Shown here one piece after another: positions 9,120 to 24,770 of a DNA stretch of 64,000 nucleotides. The position numbers and the translations under genes were made by a program. Under the pieces are notes generated by a model. That model was not told the origin of the DNA. It searched no databases and worked only from the letters and a program-made list of their open reading frames with translations. The first letter of the stretch is position 1. Each line of letters starts with the position of its first letter. The DNA comes from Escherichia phage vB_EcoM_G4507: the sequence record NC_054919.1; one strand, given 5' to 3'.

Positions 9120-9590
9120 TTAATCATGTTTCCACACCCCATCGGTATTTGACCAAAGTCGCTGATTATCTGATCCTCGCCACAGCTTTTTAGTCGGAAG
9201 ATTTTTCTCATACTTCCCATCAATAATAACATCAACATATTTAAGCATTTCTAGCTGTTTAATATCTTCAAACTTATATCCTGTCCACAACCAAATGCTT
9301 TTATTGGGATAAAGATTTTTTACTGTTTGAACCACAGAGTGAATCACGTCTCTGTTATCAGGATAAAGAGGGTCACCTCCGGTTATAGTTAATCCTTCTA
9401 TATAATCATTATTCAAACATTCAATTAATTGTTCTAGTGTTTCACCAGTGAATGGAATACCATTTCTAGCATTCCATGTTGATTTATTATAACACCCTTC
9501 GCATTTATGCAAACAACCTGTAACGAAAAGAACGACCCTGCAACCAGGGCCATTAACAAAATCGCAAGGATAAAATCTATCATAATTCAT
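9120..9590 (-). CDS. nrdG: Anaerobic ribonucleotide reductase activating protein (radical SAM)
   Basis: 156 aa; Cys cluster GCLHKCEGC; ATGA overlap with nrdD stop; same length as T4 NrdG. Confidence 0.85.
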   Translation of the reverse strand: MNYDRFYPCDFVNGPGCRVVLFVTGCLHKCEGCYNKSTWNARNGIPFTGETLEQLIECLNNDYIEGLTITGGDPLYPDNRDVIHSVVQTVKNLYPNKSIWLWTGYKFEDIKQLEMLKYVDVIIDGKYEKNLPTKKLWRGSDNQRLWSNTDGVWKHD

Positions 9591-11404
9591 TGGTGTTTAA
9601 CCCTATGCATGATTTCTTTATTTTTACCGAGATTAAATCCGCGTTCGTTTGGATTTCCCAAATAACCACATGTTCTTCTTATGGTGTTCATCTTTTTAGG
9701 ATCAGTTTCTCCACAAATAGAACAAACAAATCCGTTTTCAGTAGGAGTCATTTCATGGGTACTTCCACATGTAAAACATTTATCTACTGGCATATTAACA
9801 CCAAAATAATCTAAATGTTGTGCAGCATAATCCCATACGGCCTCAAGGCCTTTCAAGTTATTTTTCATATCAGGAAGTTCAACATAAGAAATGTGACCAC
9901 CTGTCGCAATGAAATGATATGGCGCTTCACGAGAAATCTTTTCAAACGGAGTAATATTTTCTTCTACTGAAACGTGGAAACTGTTAGTGTACCAGCCTTT
10001 ATCGGTAACATCTTTTACACTTCCATATTTTTCTGTATCAAGTTTACAGAAGCGATAACAAAGGTTTTCAGCAGGAGTAGAATACAAACTAAAAGCAAAC
10101 CCAGTTCTTTCAGTCCACTGTTTAAGACGAGCATTCATTTTAGTTAAAATTTCTCGTCCAATATCACGACCGACAAGAATATTCAATTCGTGAATACCAA
10201 TGTATCCTAGAGACACTGAACTTCTGCCATTTTTAAATAACTCAATTATATCGTCATCAGGTTTAAGACGAACCCCGAATGCACCTTCTTGGTAAAGAAT
10301 AGGAGCAACAGTTGCTTTAACTCCTTTTAAGGAACTAATTCTACACATCAAAGCTTCAAAACACAAATCCATTCGCTCATTGAACAATTCGATAAATTTC
10401 TGTTCATTGAACTGTGTTCCAATATAAGAATCTAATGCGATACGAGGAAGATTCAGTGTTACAACACCGAGATTATTACGTCCATCAAGAATTTCATTAC
10501 CGGTTGAATCTTTCCACACACTCAAAAAACTGCGGCAACCCATTGGAGAAACAGGAATAGATGAGCCGGTGATAGCTTTATTGTTCTTAGCTGAAATAAT
10601 ATCAGGATACATTCTTTTGCTTGCGCACTCTAAAGCAAGCTGTTTAATATCATAGTTCGGATCGTCTTTATAAAGATTAACACCTTCTTCAACAAACATA
10701 ACAAGCTTAGGGAAAATAGGAGTTATCCCATCACGACCAAGACCTTTAATACGATTTTTCAGAATTGCTTTCTGAATCATTCGTTCAGTCCAGTCAGTTC
10801 CTGTACCAAATGTAATTGTTACAAAAGGTGTTTGTCCGTTTGAACTAAAGAGAGTATTTACTTCATATTCATAAGCTTGGAATGCATCGTATACGTCTTT
10901 TTCTGTTTTAGACTGGGCATAATTCAACGCATCAGTGATTTGCCATTTTTCTGCATCCTCAATATGTTTTGCATAGGTGCGTTTAACATAAGGAGAAAGT
11001 ACTTTATCTACATTCGCAAAAGTCGTTCCGCCATATTGATGGGAAGCAACCTGTGCAGTAATTTGCGCCATAATTGCAGTAGCAACTCCAATTGATTTAG
11101 GAGTTTCAATCTGTGCATTACCTAGCTTAAATCCGTTTTCAAGCATTCCTTTTAAATCTACTAAACAACAATTAGTAAATGGAAGAGCAGGGGAATAATC
11201 AATATCGTGGAAATGGATAATTCCGCTTTCATGCGCTTTCATAATAAAAGACGGGACCATATTTTTGGCAATGTGTTTAGACACAATACCAGCCATAAGG
11301 TCCCGTTGAGTTGGAAAAACACGAGAATCTTTATTAGCATTCTCGTTTAAAAGGTCTTTATTAGTTTTATGAATCAATCCTTCAATTTCTTTTTCAATTG
11401 TCAT
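9587..11404 (-). CDS. nrdD: Anaerobic ribonucleoside-triphosphate reductase (glycyl radical enzyme), uninterrupted
   Basis: 605 aa continuous ORF; C-terminal RTCGYLG glycyl-radical motif and Zn-ribbon CFTCGSTHE...CSICGETD. Confidence 0.9.
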   Translation of the reverse strand: MTIEKEIEGLIHKTNKDLLNENANKDSRVFPTQRDLMAGIVSKHIAKNMVPSFIMKAHESGIIHFHDIDYSPALPFTNCCLVDLKGMLENGFKLGNAQIETPKSIGVATAIMAQITAQVASHQYGGTTFANVDKVLSPYVKRTYAKHIEDAEKWQITDALNYAQSKTEKDVYDAFQAYEYEVNTLFSSNGQTPFVTITFGTGTDWTERMIQKAILKNRIKGLGRDGITPIFPKLVMFVEEGVNLYKDDPNYDIKQLALECASKRMYPDIISAKNNKAITGSSIPVSPMGCRSFLSVWKDSTGNEILDGRNNLGVVTLNLPRIALDSYIGTQFNEQKFIELFNERMDLCFEALMCRISSLKGVKATVAPILYQEGAFGVRLKPDDDIIELFKNGRSSVSLGYIGIHELNILVGRDIGREILTKMNARLKQWTERTGFAFSLYSTPAENLCYRFCKLDTEKYGSVKDVTDKGWYTNSFHVSVEENITPFEKISREAPYHFIATGGHISYVELPDMKNNLKGLEAVWDYAAQHLDYFGVNMPVDKCFTCGSTHEMTPTENGFVCSICGETDPKKMNTIRRTCGYLGNPNERGFNLGKNKEIMHRVKHQ

Positions 11405-12525: not shown

Positions 12526-12846
12526 TTATAGCGTAATCCATTCTCTTACTGTCTGAGTTACTACACGTTCTCGAAGCTCAACCAGTTCAACGGTAGGAAC
12601 TGCATAATACCAGTCAGAATGGTAAGAACCTGAGCGAGATTCATTTACGGAAACATATACGTAGTGTTTTGGGCTAAAGTAAATTACTCGACGATATTGG
12701 CATTTGCCTTGTTGAGTCCATTCTTCGGATTCAATCGGAATAAGATAGTCGGAAAAATCGAAATCATAGTTTTCCGAAAATGCATCATGGTCTTCAATAA
12801 TTTCGCTCAGAACTGCATCAACATCTAATTTATTTTCAGTATTCAT
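12526..12846 (-). CDS. Hypothetical protein
   Basis: ORF track. Confidence 0.5.
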   Translation of the reverse strand: MNTENKLDVDAVLSEIIEDHDAFSENYDFDFSDYLIPIESEEWTQQGKCQYRRVIYFSPKHYVYVSVNESRSGSYHSDWYYAVPTVELVELRERVVTQTVREWITL

Positions 12847-13752: not shown

Positions 13753-14142
13753 TTAATCCAAAATATTATTAGGCATTGGTTGAACACTCACAAGTTCTTT
13801 AAAGAACTCAGTAGAATCAGGCAATTTAACCATTTCCGGAGCATGCTTACTGAATTTATGTTTACATTGACGGCATTTATATTCAAGCTCTGGTTTACGC
13901 CAGTTAATCAATTGAACTTGTTCAGTACCGCATTCAGGGCAATTAGGAACGTTTTTAGAAGCTCTTTCACGTCGTTCAACCATAGCCATAATAGCATCCC
14001 ATGCTGGAGGTTTAAAATCTAAATCGTCGCAGCCGTGAATCTTTCCACGCATTTCCATATCATCTTCCTCACCAGCCATAATAATTTTAATTAAACTGGA
14101 ATTACTTGAAGCTGCAATGTCTTCTAATAAACGCTTTTTCAT
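13753..14142 (-). CDS. Hypothetical Zn-ribbon protein (nrdC.2 position)
   Basis: CPECG...CRQC motifs. Confidence 0.5.
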
Positions 14143-15068
14143 TTCAATACCTCAATAGCATTACGTAAACCATTTGCTTTGGCGGTTAAAGCCTTAAGAA
14201 CTTTAGTATGCTCTTCAATTTGTTTTTCAACTTCAGTCAAACGGGCATTGAGATATTCACGTTCTTCACCCAGATTATCAACCTTTTCTACTTTAGGCTC
14301 TTTTACAACTGTCTTATATGTATTAGGGTTCTTCAGTTTAATTAGAATGCGTGAACTGTATAACATTGAACCATTATCTTCGGTTTCGTCATACATTTCC
14401 ACTACGTCCATAATTTTTAACATCATGCGGAGTTTATAAGACAACGAACGAATAGTTTTGTTGTGCTTATTAATTTCTTTAGCTGTCATGGTGCCGAGAT
14501 TACGTGAGTAATAATAAGGAACCTGGATATTAATTAATACTGATGAACCACCTGGCTTGTGTGTTACTTCATCAGCAATAACCCAGTCCTTAACATGAAC
14601 TGTATTTGTACGGTCATTGCCCGCGGTAAATAGTTTGCGAGCATGCTTAAAAAGCATATTCACTTGGGTATTGAATTGACAAGCAAATTTATCAGCAAAT
14701 TTAGTTTCAGGAATGGTAGATAACCAATCAGCCAAATGGGTCTTTTTAACATCGTTAACAATAGTAAATTGAACCAAATCGGTTATAGATGTCTCAGATT
14801 TAATAAAGCTCGGCTTCATAAAGTTTTTAATGTTATCGCGAGCTACAGTAGAAGATAACATACGAGAACGTTTAAACCATTCAAGCAAATTGCCTAACGA
14901 ATGAGAATAAGCGTTTTGAGTATCTTTACAGATATGATTTTCCTGGCCAACATATTGAAGGAAATCACGAAGAATATTATTGATTACTGCTCTGTGTCCG
15001 ATCTGATAATTACGATGTTTAGTAATAAGACTGTCAAAATAATCAATATAATGTTTACGAGTTTTCAT
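14139..15068 (-). CDS. Hypothetical protein with C-terminal coiled coil
   Basis: 309 aa; C-terminal heptad-like EYLNARLTEVEKQIEEHTKVLKAL. Confidence 0.55.
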   Translation of the reverse strand: MKTRKHYIDYFDSLITKHRNYQIGHRAVINNILRDFLQYVGQENHICKDTQNAYSHSLGNLLEWFKRSRMLSSTVARDNIKNFMKPSFIKSETSITDLVQFTIVNDVKKTHLADWLSTIPETKFADKFACQFNTQVNMLFKHARKLFTAGNDRTNTVHVKDWVIADEVTHKPGGSSVLINIQVPYYYSRNLGTMTAKEINKHNKTIRSLSYKLRMMLKIMDVVEMYDETEDNGSMLYSSRILIKLKNPNTYKTVVKEPKVEKVDNLGEEREYLNARLTEVEKQIEEHTKVLKALTAKANGLRNAIEVLK

Positions 15069-15119
15069 GTTCTTCTCACTTGTTAATGATTTATACTCCG
15101 AGCCATCCTTGGCTTTAAA

Positions 15120-16121
15120 TTACTTAATTAACTGTAAAGCTTGTTCAAGACGATCCAAGCGATTAACAGATTCTTCCCAAATCTTTTTAGCCTTCTCATA
15201 TTCTTTCTGCGCTTTATTAGAAATTTCTAGAACTTCTTTATAAGCTTTTTCTAGTGCAACAACTTCTGGACGAATTTCTACCGGTTCAAGTGAATCGTCA
15301 AGATTATCCATTAGTTCCTCAAGGGTAGTTTCTTCTTTAGGAGTATTCACAATTTCTTCGCATTTTTGTTGGTAAATTTCTTTATCAGTTAGTGAATAAG
15401 CACATTTCACTTCACGAAGACTAATTACAATTTTATATCCTTCCCAACCACCAATATTTTTGAAAGGATATGTATGAATACTTTTTACAGTTTCCATACA
15501 ATCCAAAGCCGTCTCTAATTGATGAGTTATAGTGCTAGCAATTGAGAAAAATTTATTAATATTCTTTTGGTTAGCTTCTGGTGTAAAAAATTCATAATTC
15601 ACAAAAATAGCTACTTTATTTTTATCAAGCTCATATTCTTTTACGATAATCATATCAGAAGCCAAAGGATGAATTTGACGATAATCGCCATAACATAATT
15701 TAGAAGCTGATTTTAGAATTTGTCCTTTAAAAAGTCTGAAATTACTAATCCAACGACGAGTAAAAATATTCTTAGGGTCTTCTTTGATATTAAGATGATA
15801 AGAATTAACATCACCGAACCAATTGTATCCTATTACACCTTTAGTTCGTTTAATTTCTTTCCCAAAATTACCAAGAATATCCCGATTAACTAAATATGAA
15901 AGAAGACGAGACCCTTTAAAGATTATCTTAATATCATCTTTATCTACACGGCTAGAAATTTCACGAACTTCATGAATAAATTTACTGGAAGAAACAATAC
16001 TTGCATCAATACTGCTGAGCCATTGATTGATAATAGAAAGAACAGCGTTCTGACTAGACATGGGTTTAACTTTATCATCAATAACCCCATTGAATGATTT
16101 GATATATTCGTTACGAGTCAT
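15120..16121 (-). CDS. Hypothetical protein with C-terminal coiled coil
   Basis: Track start 16172 lies within a promoter; ATG at 16121 with GAGGAG SD; C-terminal coiled coil. Confidence 0.55.
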   Translation of the reverse strand: MTRNEYIKSFNGVIDDKVKPMSSQNAVLSIINQWLSSIDASIVSSSKFIHEVREISSRVDKDDIKIIFKGSRLLSYLVNRDILGNFGKEIKRTKGVIGYNWFGDVNSYHLNIKEDPKNIFTRRWISNFRLFKGQILKSASKLCYGDYRQIHPLASDMIIVKEYELDKNKVAIFVNYEFFTPEANQKNINKFFSIASTITHQLETALDCMETVKSIHTYPFKNIGGWEGYKIVISLREVKCAYSLTDKEIYQQKCEEIVNTPKEETTLEELMDNLDDSLEPVEIRPEVVALEKAYKEVLEISNKAQKEYEKAKKIWEESVNRLDRLEQALQLIK

Positions 16122-16149
16122 ATTAATCTCCTCAGTAGAAAGTAAGAAC

Positions 16150-16179
16150 ATTATACCACATCCTTGTGGCAAAGTAAAC
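16150..16179 (-). promoter_or_regulatory. T4-type early promoter
   Basis: GTTTAC, 18 nt with TGG extended element, TATAAT. Confidence 0.55.
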
Positions 16180-17198
16180 TAGTTCAGTGCATTTAATGCA
16201 TTGTTCAGTTTAGAACGTTGCTTTGTCAGATTTTGAACCCTTGACTGAGCTTGTTCTAACACCTTTTCAGCTTCTAGCACTTCATTGGTCGCTTTAACGA
16301 GTTCAGCATCTACTGCCTTAAGAGACTTCTCAATCGCGTCAGCGTGCCATTTTTCTACAGGTTTAAAATTTGAATTTTCAGTAGGAAGAAAACTCACTTT
16401 ATTAAGTTTACATGCATCATTATTACCTGAACTATACATCCAAAATTTAGGATCGTTTGATAAGTAATTGGATAAATTTAAGTTATCTTGTACTTCTTGC
16501 TTTTTCTCTTGCGTGACTTCGTCCTTTCTCAAAAAATCATATTTAAATGAAACGATCATATCAAGTTCATATGATGTTGTATCTAACTTAAATCGTTCAA
16601 AACGAGGTAAAATCTTAGATTGAACAGCAGCAACAACATCCATATACTTAAATGCTTCTATCAGCTGTGATTTAAGGCATTCACAAATTGAAAGAGAATT
16701 TTTAGTATTAGGCTTAAAGCTAATTCGTGCAGTTCTATTATTTTCTTTTAACGGTCTTACTTCCATCTGAAGAGTATAACCATCAAATTTCAGGTTCTTT
16801 AAGTTAATGTCAGAACCTTTTAATCGACTAGCCGTCGACAAAATTTGCTTTAATTGTTTACGGAATAGAGCAATAAATCTCCATTCAATACGATAATGAT
16901 TTGGATTGAAAAATCCAGATGATAAATCGACCTTACTTTGACCAACGCCTTGAACAAATAGAGGATTTTTATAATCAATAGTTTTACAGAAATCGGTGAG
17001 CTGCTCACGAGCAGTCATTTGTGTAATATACCCTGCTTCATTAAAATTACGCACCCATTCACTGCTATTCATATATTTAAAGTGAATATCACGATTAACT
17101 TTATCAGGGTCTAAATTATTTTGGCACAAAAATGTCATAACATCACGAGTATAGCTGGCATTACGAACCATATCTTCAATTTGAGAACGAGTTTTCAT
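16179..17198 (-). CDS. Hypothetical protein with C-terminal coiled coil
   Basis: 339 aa; C-terminal ELVKATNEVLEAEKVLEQAQSRVQNL. Confidence 0.55.
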   Translation of the reverse strand: MKTRSQIEDMVRNASYTRDVMTFLCQNNLDPDKVNRDIHFKYMNSSEWVRNFNEAGYITQMTAREQLTDFCKTIDYKNPLFVQGVGQSKVDLSSGFFNPNHYRIEWRFIALFRKQLKQILSTASRLKGSDINLKNLKFDGYTLQMEVRPLKENNRTARISFKPNTKNSLSICECLKSQLIEAFKYMDVVAAVQSKILPRFERFKLDTTSYELDMIVSFKYDFLRKDEVTQEKKQEVQDNLNLSNYLSNDPKFWMYSSGNNDACKLNKVSFLPTENSNFKPVEKWHADAIEKSLKAVDAELVKATNEVLEAEKVLEQAQSRVQNLTKQRSKLNNALNALN

Positions 17199-17206
17199 GG
17201 TGTTCC

Positions 17207-18130
17207 TTAAGATTTAAGTAAATCAACAATTTTAATTAATTTTTCACGTTCAGATTTAGCTTTACTACTCAGTCCAGATAGTCTGAAAATTTCATCGTCA
17301 TATTGTTGAATAGAAATATTCAGCTCTTCAATCTGTTTATTAAAATAATCAATTTGTTCAGAATGTTTTTCGTTACTACGAACTGGTACAGGGTTTGTAG
17401 GCAATTTAGTTGAACTGGATTCATCCGGGCGATAAATTAAAATACAACTTGAACCAATCGGGCATTTTGCACCAGATGAATATTCTAATGTTCCGGCTTC
17501 TTTTAAAACTTCAAAAGCTAAACAGAGATGATGCCCCATATTAACATAATCTGTAGAGCGAGCTCTGACGTAATAATCATCGCCGCGAATACTAAATTTA
17601 AAGCATTTAAGGTCTTCTGTGTTATTGGTCTTAAAAATCATTTGTTTATCTAGACCTTTAGCTAATCGAGCGCCTAATGCTAATAATCGTCGTTGATTTT
17701 CCCACAAATCTGCGATCATTTGGTCAAATGATAATTTCGGCATTAGTCGACCATAAAGGTCATATCCTTTATTATAATTACGAAGGATTTCACTCGCGTT
17801 AATACGAGACAATGCTCCAATTTTATTAAGGGCTTTCATAATGCGATTAGATAAACCCATTCCAGACCCGTTTGTTCGCTGCAAATGTTTTTCTAATCCA
17901 AATCCAATATCAACTTTAAACTTATCTAAAATTTCTGCATGAACATCTCTGTCAATAACATTCAAATCCAAAGTTGGGTTAAATCTATGAAAAAATTTAT
18001 CTGGCTCTCCACGACGAAGTACAGTCCATTCATTCATTTTTTTATTAACTAAAGATTTAATTACTGTATTGACATTATTAATTACTACTGACATATTTTC
18101 CTCACTCAATTTCAATTTTACTAAATACAC
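17207..18130 (-). CDS. Hypothetical protein with C-terminal coiled coil
   Basis: 307 aa; C-terminal coiled-coil segment; start uncertain. Confidence 0.5.
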   Translation of the reverse strand: MYLVKLKLSEENMSVVINNVNTVIKSLVNKKMNEWTVLRRGEPDKFFHRFNPTLDLNVIDRDVHAEILDKFKVDIGFGLEKHLQRTNGSGMGLSNRIMKALNKIGALSRINASEILRNYNKGYDLYGRLMPKLSFDQMIADLWENQRRLLALGARLAKGLDKQMIFKTNNTEDLKCFKFSIRGDDYYVRARSTDYVNMGHHLCLAFEVLKEAGTLEYSSGAKCPIGSSCILIYRPDESSSTKLPTNPVPVRSNEKHSEQIDYFNKQIEELNISIQQYDDEIFRLSGLSSKAKSEREKLIKIVDLLKS

Positions 18131-18509
18131 AGAATATGATGGAAAAGACTATATAAGCACCGCATATAGATTGAACTAATACCATTCCAAAGAACCAAAC
18201 GATATTATCAAACAATGTCTGTTTTACGTCGAAAGGACGTAAACTTACAGTAATATTATCACCTTTTTCTATTGAAGAATACATCTCTGGGGAAATATAT
18301 TCACTAAATCTATAACCGTCTTTGAGTTCATATACAGCAATAAACGATAAACTAGACCCCTTTCCTTGGGTTCCTGTGATAGTATTAACTACAGTAACAT
18401 CATAATCTTTATAGTGCATATAATCATTAATAGCATAATAACTATATGCAACTACTATACATAAACAACATATCAATAAATTCAATCTTTTAATTATCAA
18501 CTGTTTCAT
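18102..18509 (-). CDS. Membrane protein, 135 aa
   Basis: Hydrophobic segments at N- and C-terminus. Confidence 0.5.
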   Translation of the reverse strand: MKQLIIKRLNLLICCLCIVVAYSYYAINDYMHYKDYDVTVVNTITGTQGKGSSLSFIAVYELKDGYRFSEYISPEMYSSIEKGDNITVSLRPFDVKQTLFDNIVWFFGMVLVQSICGAYIVFSIIFCVFSKIEIE

Positions 18510-18564: not shown

Positions 18565-19092
18565 TTATGCGAGTACCGTCTTTAACCGTTCTTCAAACTT
18601 CCGAAGAGTATTCTGGCGTTCAGCTCTTTGCTTTTTGTAAGTTTCAATACGCTCTGAAATGAGAGTGTATCGTTCATTTACTGATTCTTTCATAAAATCA
18701 GGAATTTCACGAGAAGCTTTAATCTCGTCAAATTTATCAATAACAGCTTGCTCTTCAGCAATTAAGTTATCATACATCAAAATATCTTTCTTGATGAACT
18801 CAATATCTTCTTGAGTTACACGAGATAATTTAGATGCTTTATCCTTTTTGTACTGTTCGTTAGTATCACGAGACCAGTGTAATGTACGATTTTTATTCGT
18901 ATTTTTGTAAATTTCTACAATACCAATCTCATCAATAATAACGATCCAATTCCAACGGGATTTGTAAATTTGTCCTCCATCAACTGTGATTTCACCTCCG
19001 ATTGAGATGTCATTAAAGAACTTGCTTTGTGCTTCAGATTTAAATTTACCATCGTTGTAATTTACCAAGTTGAAAATATCTTTAGCGTTCAT
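18565..19092 (-). CDS. Hypothetical protein
   Basis: Track start 19152 overlaps a promoter; ATG at 19092 with GGAGG SD. Confidence 0.55.
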   Translation of the reverse strand: MNAKDIFNLVNYNDGKFKSEAQSKFFNDISIGGEITVDGGQIYKSRWNWIVIIDEIGIVEIYKNTNKNRTLHWSRDTNEQYKKDKASKLSRVTQEDIEFIKKDILMYDNLIAEEQAVIDKFDEIKASREIPDFMKESVNERYTLISERIETYKKQRAERQNTLRKFEERLKTVLA

Positions 19093-24383: not shown

Positions 24384-24770
24384 TTATTCGAGGGAAAGAA
24401 GATACTTACTCTGGTAAAACATTCCAGTAATATCATCTATCGTGCTTTGAATGGCTGGAGGCATTTCTTTATAAATGCTGTTAGATTGGTCTAGTATGCG
24501 ATCAATCATTTTAATTGTGTCGGTAGGAAGTTTACTGGCATCTGGAATTGAAGGCGTGTATTTTCTACCAGAATACCCCAAATATTGCTCACCAAATTTA
24601 TCAATCAAATCTGGCAATTCGGAGAAAATAAAATCGTATGCTTTGTGTCTAGCATAACTTTTAGTTTCAAAATGCGCAGAATGAAAATAAGCTTGTGCAG
24701 CCATTAATAAACCTAAGTATTCATCTGCCTTTGAAGGTTTTCCACTTTGTGAAAAGTCGCTGAATTTCAT
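24384..24770 (-). CDS. Hypothetical protein (rI.-1 position)
   Basis: 128 aa; ATGA overlap with rI stop. Confidence 0.5.

What the first reader, a model, noticed from the sequence alone, without database searches (positions are those of the whole stretch)
14139..18130. Four consecutive 300-350 aa proteins each ending in a coiled-coil segment
ORFs at 14139-15068, 15120-16121, 16179-17198 and 17207-18130 each carry a 30-40 aa C-terminal heptad-rich segment (for example …KAKKIWEESVNRLDRLEQALQLIK, …VLEAEKVLEQAQSRVQNLTKQRSKLNNALNALN). Their N-terminal bodies differ. They occupy the positions of the functionally uncharacterised T4 nrdC.3-nrdC.6 ORFs. The pattern suggests a set of variable effector domains sharing an oligomerisation tail.
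Basis: inference. Interest (0 to 1): 0.45.

Follow-up and report, generated by a model that had tools for sequence, protein, structure and literature searches.

The report
Tandem coiled-coil-tailed T4 counter-defence paralogues
Four neighbouring genes of a T4-like phage are diverged copies of one phage-only protein (a globular body, a floppy linker and a long coiled-coil tail); one copy is already known to defeat the bacterial Dsr1 immune enzyme, so the other three are good candidates for undiscovered anti-immunity proteins.

Summary
Four consecutive minus-strand genes (14139-15068, 15120-16121, 16179-17198, 17207-18094) each end in an unbroken 48-57-residue heptad segment. These tails rank 1, 2, 3 and 5 of 75 window ORFs for heptad periodicity.

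The genes are the orthologues of T4 nrdC.3, nrdC.4, nrdC.5 and nrdC.6, in a Tequatrovirus 99.5% identical to phage ECP52.

The bodies are not unrelated effector domains. Profile-profile comparison, AlphaFold2 models and Foldseek all show one fold and one superfamily: a helical part, a beta-beta-alpha-beta-beta part, a disordered linker and the tail. The array arose by tandem duplication, and other T4-like genera carry one to three copies at the same position.

The genes are also not all uncharacterised. T4 nrdC.5 is published as the gene that lets T4 overcome the Dsr1 sirtuin defence. Neighbouring gp49.2 inhibits OLD, and pin inhibits Lon.

All four genes evolve faster than their neighbours (dN/dS 0.18-0.33 against 0-0.08). 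nrdC.3 is a mosaic allele, and lineage-specific truncations, a deletion and a copy-number difference are seen.

Best reading: a diversified set of oligomeric counter-defence inhibitors, with the body giving specificity and the tail giving oligomerisation. Function is inferred for three of the four. Interest is moderate.

The parts
14139..15068 (-). nrdC.3 orthologue, 309 aa. A Tequatrovirus-specific, strongly diverged duplicate of nrdC.4, and a mosaic allele here (61.9% identical to T4).
   Evidence: ORF. phrog_1435, E 7e-114. hhalign to the nrdC.4 family 97.5%, E 7.5e-12. Identity and dS: body dS 1.2 against tail dS 0.085.
15120..16121 (-). nrdC.4 orthologue, 333 aa (homologues carry PF26897). 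Start is the ATG at 16121 behind the RBS GAGGAG.
   Evidence: AlphaFold2 model m446352615f0a, pLDDT 84.2.
16179..17198 (-). nrdC.5 orthologue, 339 aa, Pfam DUF7235. 95% identical to T4 NrdC.5, the published anti-Dsr1 factor.
   Evidence: Pfam E 6.4e-115. Identity. Literature PMC9391042.
17207..18094 (-). nrdC.6 orthologue, 295 aa (homologues carry PF26899).
   Evidence: AlphaFold2 model m1f55e1816dc5, pLDDT 77.8.
14142..14285 (-). Coiled-coil tail of nrdC.3 (aa 262-309).
   Evidence: Period 3.45, a/d hydrophobic 12/14, p 0.002. Rank 1 of 75.
15123..15269 (-). Coiled-coil tail of nrdC.4 (aa 285-333).
   Evidence: Period 3.45, a/d hydrophobic 12/14, p 0.0025. Single helix 285-332 in the model. 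Rank 2 of 75.
16182..16352 (-). Coiled-coil tail of nrdC.5 (aa 283-339).
   Evidence: Period 3.5, a/d hydrophobic 15/16, none of 2000 shuffles reached it. Rank 3 of 75. Weak keratin coiled-coil match.
17210..17371 (-). Coiled-coil tail of nrdC.6 (aa 242-295).
   Evidence: Period 3.45, a/d hydrophobic 12/15, p 0.02. Helices 242-271 and 277-294. Rank 5 of 75.
14814..14858 (-). Shared body motif in nrdC.3 (LSSTVARDNIKNFMK, aa 71-85).
   Evidence: The post-hoc motif occurs once in each of the four proteins and nowhere else in the six-frame window.
15858..15902 (-). Shared body motif in nrdC.4 (LSYLVNRDILGNFGK, aa 74-88). It is the helix just before the first beta segment of the model.
16983..17027 (-). 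Shared body motif in nrdC.5 (ITQMTAREQLTDFCK, aa 58-72).
17768..17812 (-). Shared body motif in nrdC.6 (LSRINASEILRNYNK, aa 95-109). It occupies the equivalent helix of the model.
16150..16178 (-). T4-early-like promoter consensus (TTTACT, 17 nt, TG-TATAAT) upstream of nrdC.4.
   Evidence: This is a consensus match only; the total number of matches in the region is not above chance. The source paper calls nrdC.5 an early gene.
13753..14142 (-). nrdC.2, a 129-aa zinc-ribbon protein. Its ATG overlaps the stop of nrdC.3 (ATGA). It is a conserved, translationally coupled downstream neighbour of the family.
   Evidence: The same 4-nt overlap is seen in the other genera fetched.

Best explanation
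The four genes are a tandem array of diverged paralogues of one protein superfamily that every search here found only in T4-like phages (Straboviridae and Marfavirus).

Each protein has three parts:
1. An N-terminal body of about 230-280 aa: a helical bundle, a short beta segment, three helices and a beta-beta-alpha-beta-beta unit.
2. A poorly conserved, disordered linker of 15-25 aa.
3. A C-terminal coiled coil of 7-8 heptads.

NrdC.5 is the T4 factor that neutralises Dsr1, a sirtuin-domain defence protein thought to act on NAD+.

Most likely mechanism:
- The proteins are made early in infection.
- They oligomerise through the tail. The oligomeric state and the orientation of the helices are unknown.
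- Their bodies bind and block host immune proteins.
- Each paralogue, or each allele, is tuned to a different target or target variant.
- Duplication, rapid body divergence and allele replacement are the traces of that arms race.

Shown here: orthology, common ancestry and common fold, the heptad tail and its conservation, fast evolution and gene turnover, and the counter-defence neighbourhood.
Taken from the literature: the anti-Dsr1 phenotype of T4 nrdC.5.
Inferred: direct binding of the target, oligomerisation by the tail, and any counter-defence role for nrdC.3, nrdC.4 and nrdC.6.
For: Orthology to T4 nrdC.3-6.

One superfamily:
- hhalign nrdC.3 against nrdC.4: 97.5%.
- nrdC.3+4 against nrdC.5: 90.8%, E 1.2e-6.
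- Bridging profile against the nrdC.4, nrdC.5 and nrdC.6 families: 91.7, 97.0 and 92.7%.
- The two AlphaFold2 models have the same order of secondary-structure elements.
- Foldseek: the nrdC.4 model hits JS10 NrdC.6 at E 1.3e-4, prob 1.0. Both models hit the same proteins of phages IME523, PM2, Mineola and Acj61.
- A shared 15-aa motif sits in the equivalent helix.

Tail: heptad periodicity, rank in the window and a/d conservation. The tail is more conserved than the body in every family.

Counter-defence:
- T4 nrdC.5 supplied in trans restores plating of a deletion mutant on dsr1+ cells (PMC9391042).
- Neighbour gp49.2 inhibits OLD (PMC13096335).
- pin is annotated as an inhibitor of the host Lon protease.

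Arms-race signatures:
- dN/dS 0.18-0.33, against 0-0.08 for gp49, pin, nrdC, nrdC.1 and nrdC.8. The anti-OLD gene 49.2 has 0.25.
- nrdC.3 body dS 1.2 against tail dS 0.085.
- Copy number differs: the other T-even genera sampled (L006-L015) have one nrdC.3/4-type gene where Tequatrovirus has two, and the other T4-like genera fetched have one member detectable by profile.
- Natural frameshifts and a deletion.

No enzyme signature: no Pfam, NCBIfam, PADLOC or PDB sequence match apart from DUF7235.
Against: - Only nrdC.5 has any functional data, and its mechanism is unknown. The held literature still calls DSR1 'poorly characterized'.
- Oligomerisation was not modelled or measured. The tail helices have only moderate confidence (block-mean pLDDT about 62-79 for nrdC.4, 70-92 for nrdC.6).
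- dN/dS below 1 fits relaxed constraint as well as diversifying selection.
- Guilt by association with neighbouring genes is weak evidence, because this region is a general block of early accessory genes.
- Direct homology of nrdC.6 to the other three rests on a bridging profile at about 92%, Foldseek hits with TM of only 0.4-0.5, and a post-hoc motif. The direct nrdC.5 against nrdC.6 profile comparison found nothing.
Confidence: 0.55

Rival explanations
1. Only NrdC.5 is a counter-defence protein. The other three paralogues have a different early host-takeover or housekeeping role, or are drifting, near-redundant duplicates.
For: - Functional data exist only for nrdC.5.
- Truncations are tolerated: nrdC.4 is split in locus L009 and fragmentary in T2 and G8, and the T4 reference nrdC.6 has lost its tail.
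- dN/dS of 0.18-0.33 fits relaxed constraint.
Against: - All four are kept intact in most Tequatrovirus records: 461 of 655 matching records cover at least 80% of the 4-kb block.
- Tails and several body segments are strongly conserved across genera at 40-55% overall identity. That is not the pattern of decaying copies.
Confidence: 0.2
2. The tails do not make homo-oligomers. They either assemble the paralogues with each other into one hetero-oligomeric complex, or serve as a docking helix for a common partner.
For: - The tails of nrdC.3, nrdC.4 and nrdC.5 end in the same register with a similar L-x-x-A-[LI]-x-x-[LI]-[KN] ending; nrdC.6 ends in a looser version.
- Exposed b/c/f positions of the nrdC.4 tail are more conserved than the body (0.87 against 1.12 bits).
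- The genes are co-transcribed neighbours.
Against: - Genera with a single family member keep the same tail, so a paralogue partner cannot be required.
- The entropy order a/d < e/g < b/c/f is that of an ordinary coiled-coil core.
- Tail sequences differ strongly between families.
Confidence: 0.15
3. One reading: unrelated effector domains that have each acquired a common, portable oligomerisation tail.
For: BLASTP finds no significant similarity between the bodies.
Against: - The bodies are homologous by profile comparison and share a fold.
- The nrdC.3+4 to nrdC.5 alignment runs colinearly through body, linker and tail.
- Tails are no more similar between families than bodies are.
- The one natural chimera found, P0056 (nrdC.5::nrdC.3), is a plain deletion of nrdC.4 and not a domain swap at the linker.
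Confidence: 0.03

Closest known systems
T4 NrdC.5, the anti-Dsr1 counter-defence gene (Srikant et al. 2022, eLife, PMC9391042)
   Same: The window ORF 16179-17198 is its orthologue: 95% identical, same length, same neighbours, Pfam DUF7235.
   Different: In the papers I could search, the protein's architecture, its coiled-coil tail and its kinship with nrdC.3, nrdC.4 and nrdC.6 are not described, and no mechanism is given. The window protein itself is untested.
T4 nrdC.3, nrdC.4 and nrdC.6 (hypothetical proteins; PHROGs 1435 and 2257; Pfam PF26897 and PF26899)
   Same: Orthologues with the same order and strand.
   Different: - The window's nrdC.3 is a different allele (61.9% identity, mosaic).
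- The window's nrdC.6 keeps the tail that the T4 reference sequence has lost through a 1-nt deletion.
- Databases file the four genes as three separate families, and GenBank often calls them 'thioredoxin'.
DSAD1, the SPbeta-like-phage inhibitor of DSR2
   Same: Functional analogy only: a phage protein that counteracts a defence-associated sirtuin (paper abstracts listed).
   Different: No sequence or structure comparison was made here. DSAD1 acts on DSR2, not Dsr1. No evidence of homology.
Other T4 accessory counter-defence genes in clusters: gp49.2 (anti-OLD), and Dmd, TifA and AdfA in the 'anti-TA island'
   Same: Small early, non-essential genes clustered in hypervariable accessory regions. 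gp49.2 lies about 1.3 kb downstream of this array on the same strand.
   Different: Those are unrelated single small proteins. This is a fourfold tandem expansion of one 300-340-aa family with a coiled-coil tail.
Phage tail-terminator and tail-completion fold (lambda gpU, T5 p142, SPP1 gp17-like)

Membership tests
Pfam DUF7235 (PF23882), the NrdC.5 family | Full-length match to the family HMM above the gathering score (30 bits) | tested here: met
   ORF 16179-17198: 384.2 bits, E 6.4e-115, profile positions 1-307 of 307.
T4 NrdC.5 anti-Dsr1 factor (functional class) | Restores phage growth on cells expressing Dsr1 | not testable with these tools
   Known only for the T4 protein. The window protein is 95% identical to it.
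PF26897 / phrog_1435 (nrdC.3 and nrdC.4) | Significant full-length match to the family profile | tested here: met
   phrog_1435: nrdC.4 E 2.3e-164, nrdC.3 E 7.3e-114. All nrdC.4 homologues carry a precomputed PF26897 hit. The local Pfam copy returned no PF26897 hit for either protein, so Pfam itself could not be scanned directly.
PF26899 / phrog_2257 (nrdC.6) | Significant full-length match to the family profile | tested here: met
   phrog_2257 E 7.7e-153. All homologues carry PF26899.
Single NrdC.3-6 superfamily (proposed here) | Homology of all four bodies by profile-profile comparison | tested here: met
   97.5%, 90.8%, and a bridging profile at 91.7, 97.0 and 92.7%. The direct nrdC.5 against nrdC.6 comparison was negative, so the nrdC.6 link is transitive.
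Single NrdC.3-6 superfamily (proposed here) | Common three-dimensional fold | tested here: met
   Models of nrdC.4 and nrdC.6 have matching element order. Cross-hit to JS10 NrdC.6 and shared BFVD targets at prob 1.0, though TM is only 0.4-0.5. nrdC.3 and nrdC.5 were not modelled.
Canonical coiled coil | Heptad (3.5-residue) hydrophobic periodicity over at least 4 heptads, with the a/d core conserved | tested here: met
Canonical coiled coil | Forms an oligomeric supercoil | not testable with these tools
   Only single-chain prediction is available. Helices are predicted at moderate confidence.
Thioredoxin / glutaredoxin (the common GenBank label for these ORFs) | Thioredoxin-fold domain match and a CxxC active site | tested here: not met
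   No thioredoxin or glutaredoxin Pfam or NCBIfam hit. By inspection, the translations contain no CxxC motif. The models are not thioredoxin folds. The label appears to come from the 'nrdC.x' gene names.
Known anti-phage defence proteins (PADLOC) | Significant match to a defence-system HMM | tested here: not met
   Only a 15-bit coiled-coil match to BrxC.
[not shown]
   [not shown]

The most novel reading that the evidence does not exclude
Probability: 0.1. Interest if true: 0.8.

Novelty: new member of a known kind. Interest (0 to 1): 0.5.

Why it matters
- T4 is the best-studied phage, yet most of its early accessory genes have no known role.
- Placing nrdC.3, nrdC.4 and nrdC.6 in one family with the anti-Dsr1 gene nrdC.5 turns three 'hypothetical' genes (often mislabelled 'thioredoxin') into specific candidates for counter-defence screens.
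- It gives a domain hypothesis that simple truncations and swaps can test: the body for specificity, the tail for oligomerisation.
- It offers a natural series for studying how a phage inhibitor family diversifies. The series runs from one profile-detectable copy in other genera to four in Tequatrovirus, and includes mosaic alleles and the tail-less T4 reference nrdC.6.
- It may also give a handle on how the poorly understood Dsr1 system is triggered and blocked.

Tried and rejected
- BLASTP among the four proteins found nothing significant, so profiles were needed.
- Sequence search of the PDB with three family profiles gave only coiled-coil or designed-helix noise.
- PADLOC and NCBIfam gave nothing meaningful. 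The sub-threshold PHL-domain hit and the tyrosine-recombinase N-terminal hit in nrdC.3 were discarded as noise.
- nrdC.8 (18565-19092) was considered as a fifth member because its C-terminus looks helical. I rejected it: no heptad periodicity (p 0.15) and no profile similarity.
- Tail-only profile comparisons between families are too weak (E about 1e-3) to prove tail homology on their own.
- An exhaustive HMM search with the nrdC.3/4 profile found only 9 cluster representatives among 1.84 billion proteins. No distant cellular relatives can be found by sequence.
- The promoter scan found T4-early-like sites upstream of nrdC.4 and nrdC.8, but the total count equals the shuffle expectation, so it is not evidence.
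nrdC.4 was modelled instead, so nrdC.5 and nrdC.3 have no model.
- The natural fusion P0056 (nrdC.5::nrdC.3) was examined as possible evidence of modular exchange. It is a simple deletion.

Full report
**What is there**

The window is a Tequatrovirus genome segment. The 4-kb block is 99.5% identical to Escherichia phage ECP52, and 655 phage records match it.

On the minus strand lie four consecutive ORFs:
- 14139-15068, 309 aa
- 15120-16121, 333 aa
- 16179-17198, 339 aa
- 17207-18094, 295 aa

The fourth most likely starts at the ATG at 18094, behind the RBS GAGGAAAAT. That agrees with the T4 annotation.

Comparison with the annotated T4 record shows that these are the orthologues of nrdC.3, nrdC.4, nrdC.5 and nrdC.6, in the same order. 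Identities to T4 are 61.9, 88.3, 95.0 and 93.7%.

**The tails are real coiled-coil-type segments**

- Family-averaged hydropathy of each tail peaks at period 3.45-3.5.
- One unbroken heptad register runs for 48-57 residues.
- 12/14, 12/14, 15/16 and 12/15 of the a/d positions are hydrophobic.
- Permutation p is 0.002, 0.0025, 0 (none of 2000 shuffles) and 0.02.
- Among 75 non-overlapping window ORFs, the four rank 1, 2, 3 and 5 for heptad-band power at the C-terminus.
- Within families, a/d positions are the most conserved, then e/g, then b/c/f.
- The tail is more conserved than the body in every family.
- AlphaFold2 predicts a 48-residue helix in nrdC.4 and helices 242-271 plus 277-294 in nrdC.6. 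Each follows a disordered linker.
- nrdC.8, the next gene but one, does not share the periodicity.

**The bodies are homologous, not different**

BLASTP sees nothing between the bodies. More sensitive methods do:

- PHROGs places nrdC.3 and nrdC.4 in one family.
- Profile-profile comparison gives 97.5% (E 7.5e-12) for nrdC.3 against nrdC.4.
- It gives 90.8% (E 1.2e-6, 243 colinear columns from the body through the tail) for nrdC.3+4 against nrdC.5.
- nrdC.6 showed no direct profile match, but three other lines of evidence link it to the rest:
  - Its AlphaFold2 model (pLDDT 77.8) and that of nrdC.4 (pLDDT 84.2) have the same order of elements. That order is a helical bundle, a short beta segment, three helices, beta-beta-alpha-beta-beta, a linker and the tail helix.
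  - The nrdC.4 model hits JS10 NrdC.6 in BFVD (E 1.3e-4, prob 1.0). Both models hit the same 300-335-aa uncharacterised proteins of phages IME523, PM2, Mineola and Acj61.
  - A profile built from those single-copy relatives (Kanagawavirus, Mosugukvirus, Marfavirus) matches the nrdC.4, nrdC.5 and nrdC.6 families at 91.7%, 97.0% and 92.7%.
- A 15-residue motif, L-[ST]-x-x-x-[AN]-[RS]-[DE]-x-[IL]-x-[ND]-[FY]-x-K, occurs once in each protein. It sits in the equivalent helix of the two modelled proteins and occurs nowhere else in the six-frame window. The motif was derived after the fact, so it is supportive only.

**Evolutionary pattern**

- The other T-even genera sampled from the viral contig collection (loci L006-L015) have one nrdC.3/4-type gene plus nrdC.5 and nrdC.6.
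- In the genera fetched from GenBank (Kanagawavirus, Jiaodavirus, Mosugukvirus and Marfavirus), profile comparison detected one family member between nrdC.10 and nrdC. An Acinetobacter phage carries a 386-aa ORF at the same position. That ORF has a similar tail but no profile match.
- Wherever I looked, the last member overlaps the start of the zinc-ribbon gene nrdC.2 by ATGA.
- The nrdC.3/4 sequence family is tiny: 9 cluster representatives among 1.84 billion proteins.
- Between this phage and T4, dN/dS is 0.18-0.33 for the four genes. It is 0-0.08 for gp49, pin, nrdC, nrdC.1 and nrdC.8.
- nrdC.3 is mosaic. Its ends are nearly identical to T4, but the body has dS 1.2 against 0.085 in the tail.
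- Natural lesions occur:
  - a split nrdC.4 in locus L009;
  - nrdC.4 fragments in phages T2 and G8;
  - an nrdC.5::nrdC.3 fusion that deletes nrdC.4;
  - a 1-nt deletion that removes the tail of nrdC.6 in the T4 reference.

**Function**

- No enzyme, defence-system or solved-structure match exists.
- The literature search found that T4 nrdC.5, an early non-essential gene, restores plating of a T4 deletion mutant on cells carrying the Dsr1 sirtuin defence of ECOR17 when expressed in trans (PMC9391042).
- I found no mechanism and no family description in the held papers.
- gp49.2, about 1.3 kb downstream on the same strand, is a published OLD inhibitor (PMC13096335). pin is annotated as a Lon protease inhibitor.
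- The array therefore sits in a block of counter-defence and host-takeover genes, and one member is a proven counter-defence gene.

**Conclusion**

The best-supported explanation is a tandemly expanded family of oligomeric inhibitors of host immunity. The diverging body would give target specificity and the conserved coiled coil would give oligomerisation.

- The family relationship and the tail are shown here.
- The anti-Dsr1 activity comes from the literature and is transferred by 95% identity.
- The roles of nrdC.3, nrdC.4 and nrdC.6 are inferred, as is the oligomerisation itself.

Its interpretation is partly supported: the tail idea is plausible, but the 'different effector domains' idea is wrong and 'uncharacterised' is out of date.

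Noticed in passing
L001 (T4 NC_000866) 10067-10140, compared with window 17207-17345: The T4 reference sequence has a 1-nt deletion (GAGCTG-ATATT against GAGCTGAATATT) in nrdC.6. T4 NrdC.6 (275 aa) therefore ends in IFLFNNMMMKFSDYLD and lacks the coiled-coil tail. The downstream DNA still encodes the tail out of frame. This is either a natural tail-less mutant of the laboratory strain or a sequencing error.
   Followed up: yes
window 14139-15068: nrdC.3 is a mosaic allele. Residues 1-60 and 270-309 are about 90% identical to T4, but the middle is only 40-55% identical. Body dS is 1.2 and tail dS is 0.085. Flanking genes are 98.8-100% identical. This looks like allele replacement by recombination within the gene.
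   Followed up: partly
window 13753-14142; also L016 16049-16339, L018 15513-15773, L020 1299-1586, L021 3169-3381, L022 3256-3480: nrdC.2, a small zinc-ribbon protein, always follows the last family member with a 4-nt ATGA overlap. This holds in every genus examined and suggests conserved translational coupling, and perhaps a functional partnership. The window's nrdC.2 is 129 aa against 104 aa in T4, at 75.7% identity.
   Followed up: partly
window 12526-12846 (-): Orthologue of T4/T6 gp49.2, recently published as an inhibitor of the OLD defence nuclease. It is 88.7% identical to T4 with dN/dS 0.25, far more diverged than its neighbours.
   Followed up: partly
GenBank records under the match: nrdC.3-nrdC.6, and even nrdC.10 and nrdC.11, are widely annotated as 'thioredoxin'. 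The annotation appears to have spread from the 'nrdC.x' locus names. These four proteins have no thioredoxin domain and no CxxC motif.
   Followed up: yes
P0056 (metagenomic protein, 299 aa); L009 6971-8003: P0056 is a natural in-frame fusion of the middle of NrdC.5 to the C-terminal half of NrdC.3, which deletes nrdC.4. In L009, nrdC.4 is split into ORFs of 193 and 158 aa. BFVD also holds nrdC.4 fragments of 155-158 aa from phages T2 and G8. Loss of nrdC.4 appears to recur.
   Followed up: partly
window 18102-18509 (-): nrdC.7 is a predicted membrane protein lying between nrdC.6 and nrdC.8. It was not detected at that position in the non-Tequatrovirus T-even loci L006-L015.
   Followed up: no
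window 24384-24770 (-): This 128-aa ORF ranks 4th of 75 for heptad-band periodicity at its C-terminus, between the four nrdC proteins. Its tail contains 4 Pro/Gly residues, so it is probably not a continuous coiled coil.
   Followed up: no
window 9587-11404 (-): nrdD is one uninterrupted 605-aa ORF that abuts gene 49. In T4, nrdD is split by the group I intron carrying I-TevII and is preceded by mobC. This phage appears to lack the nrdD intron.
   Followed up: no
P0121 (Shigella phage Sf25, 378 aa): An NrdC.6 homologue with an N-terminal extension of about 80 aa. It may be a read-through fusion with the upstream nrdC.7 gene.
   Followed up: no
[not shown]
   Followed up: partly
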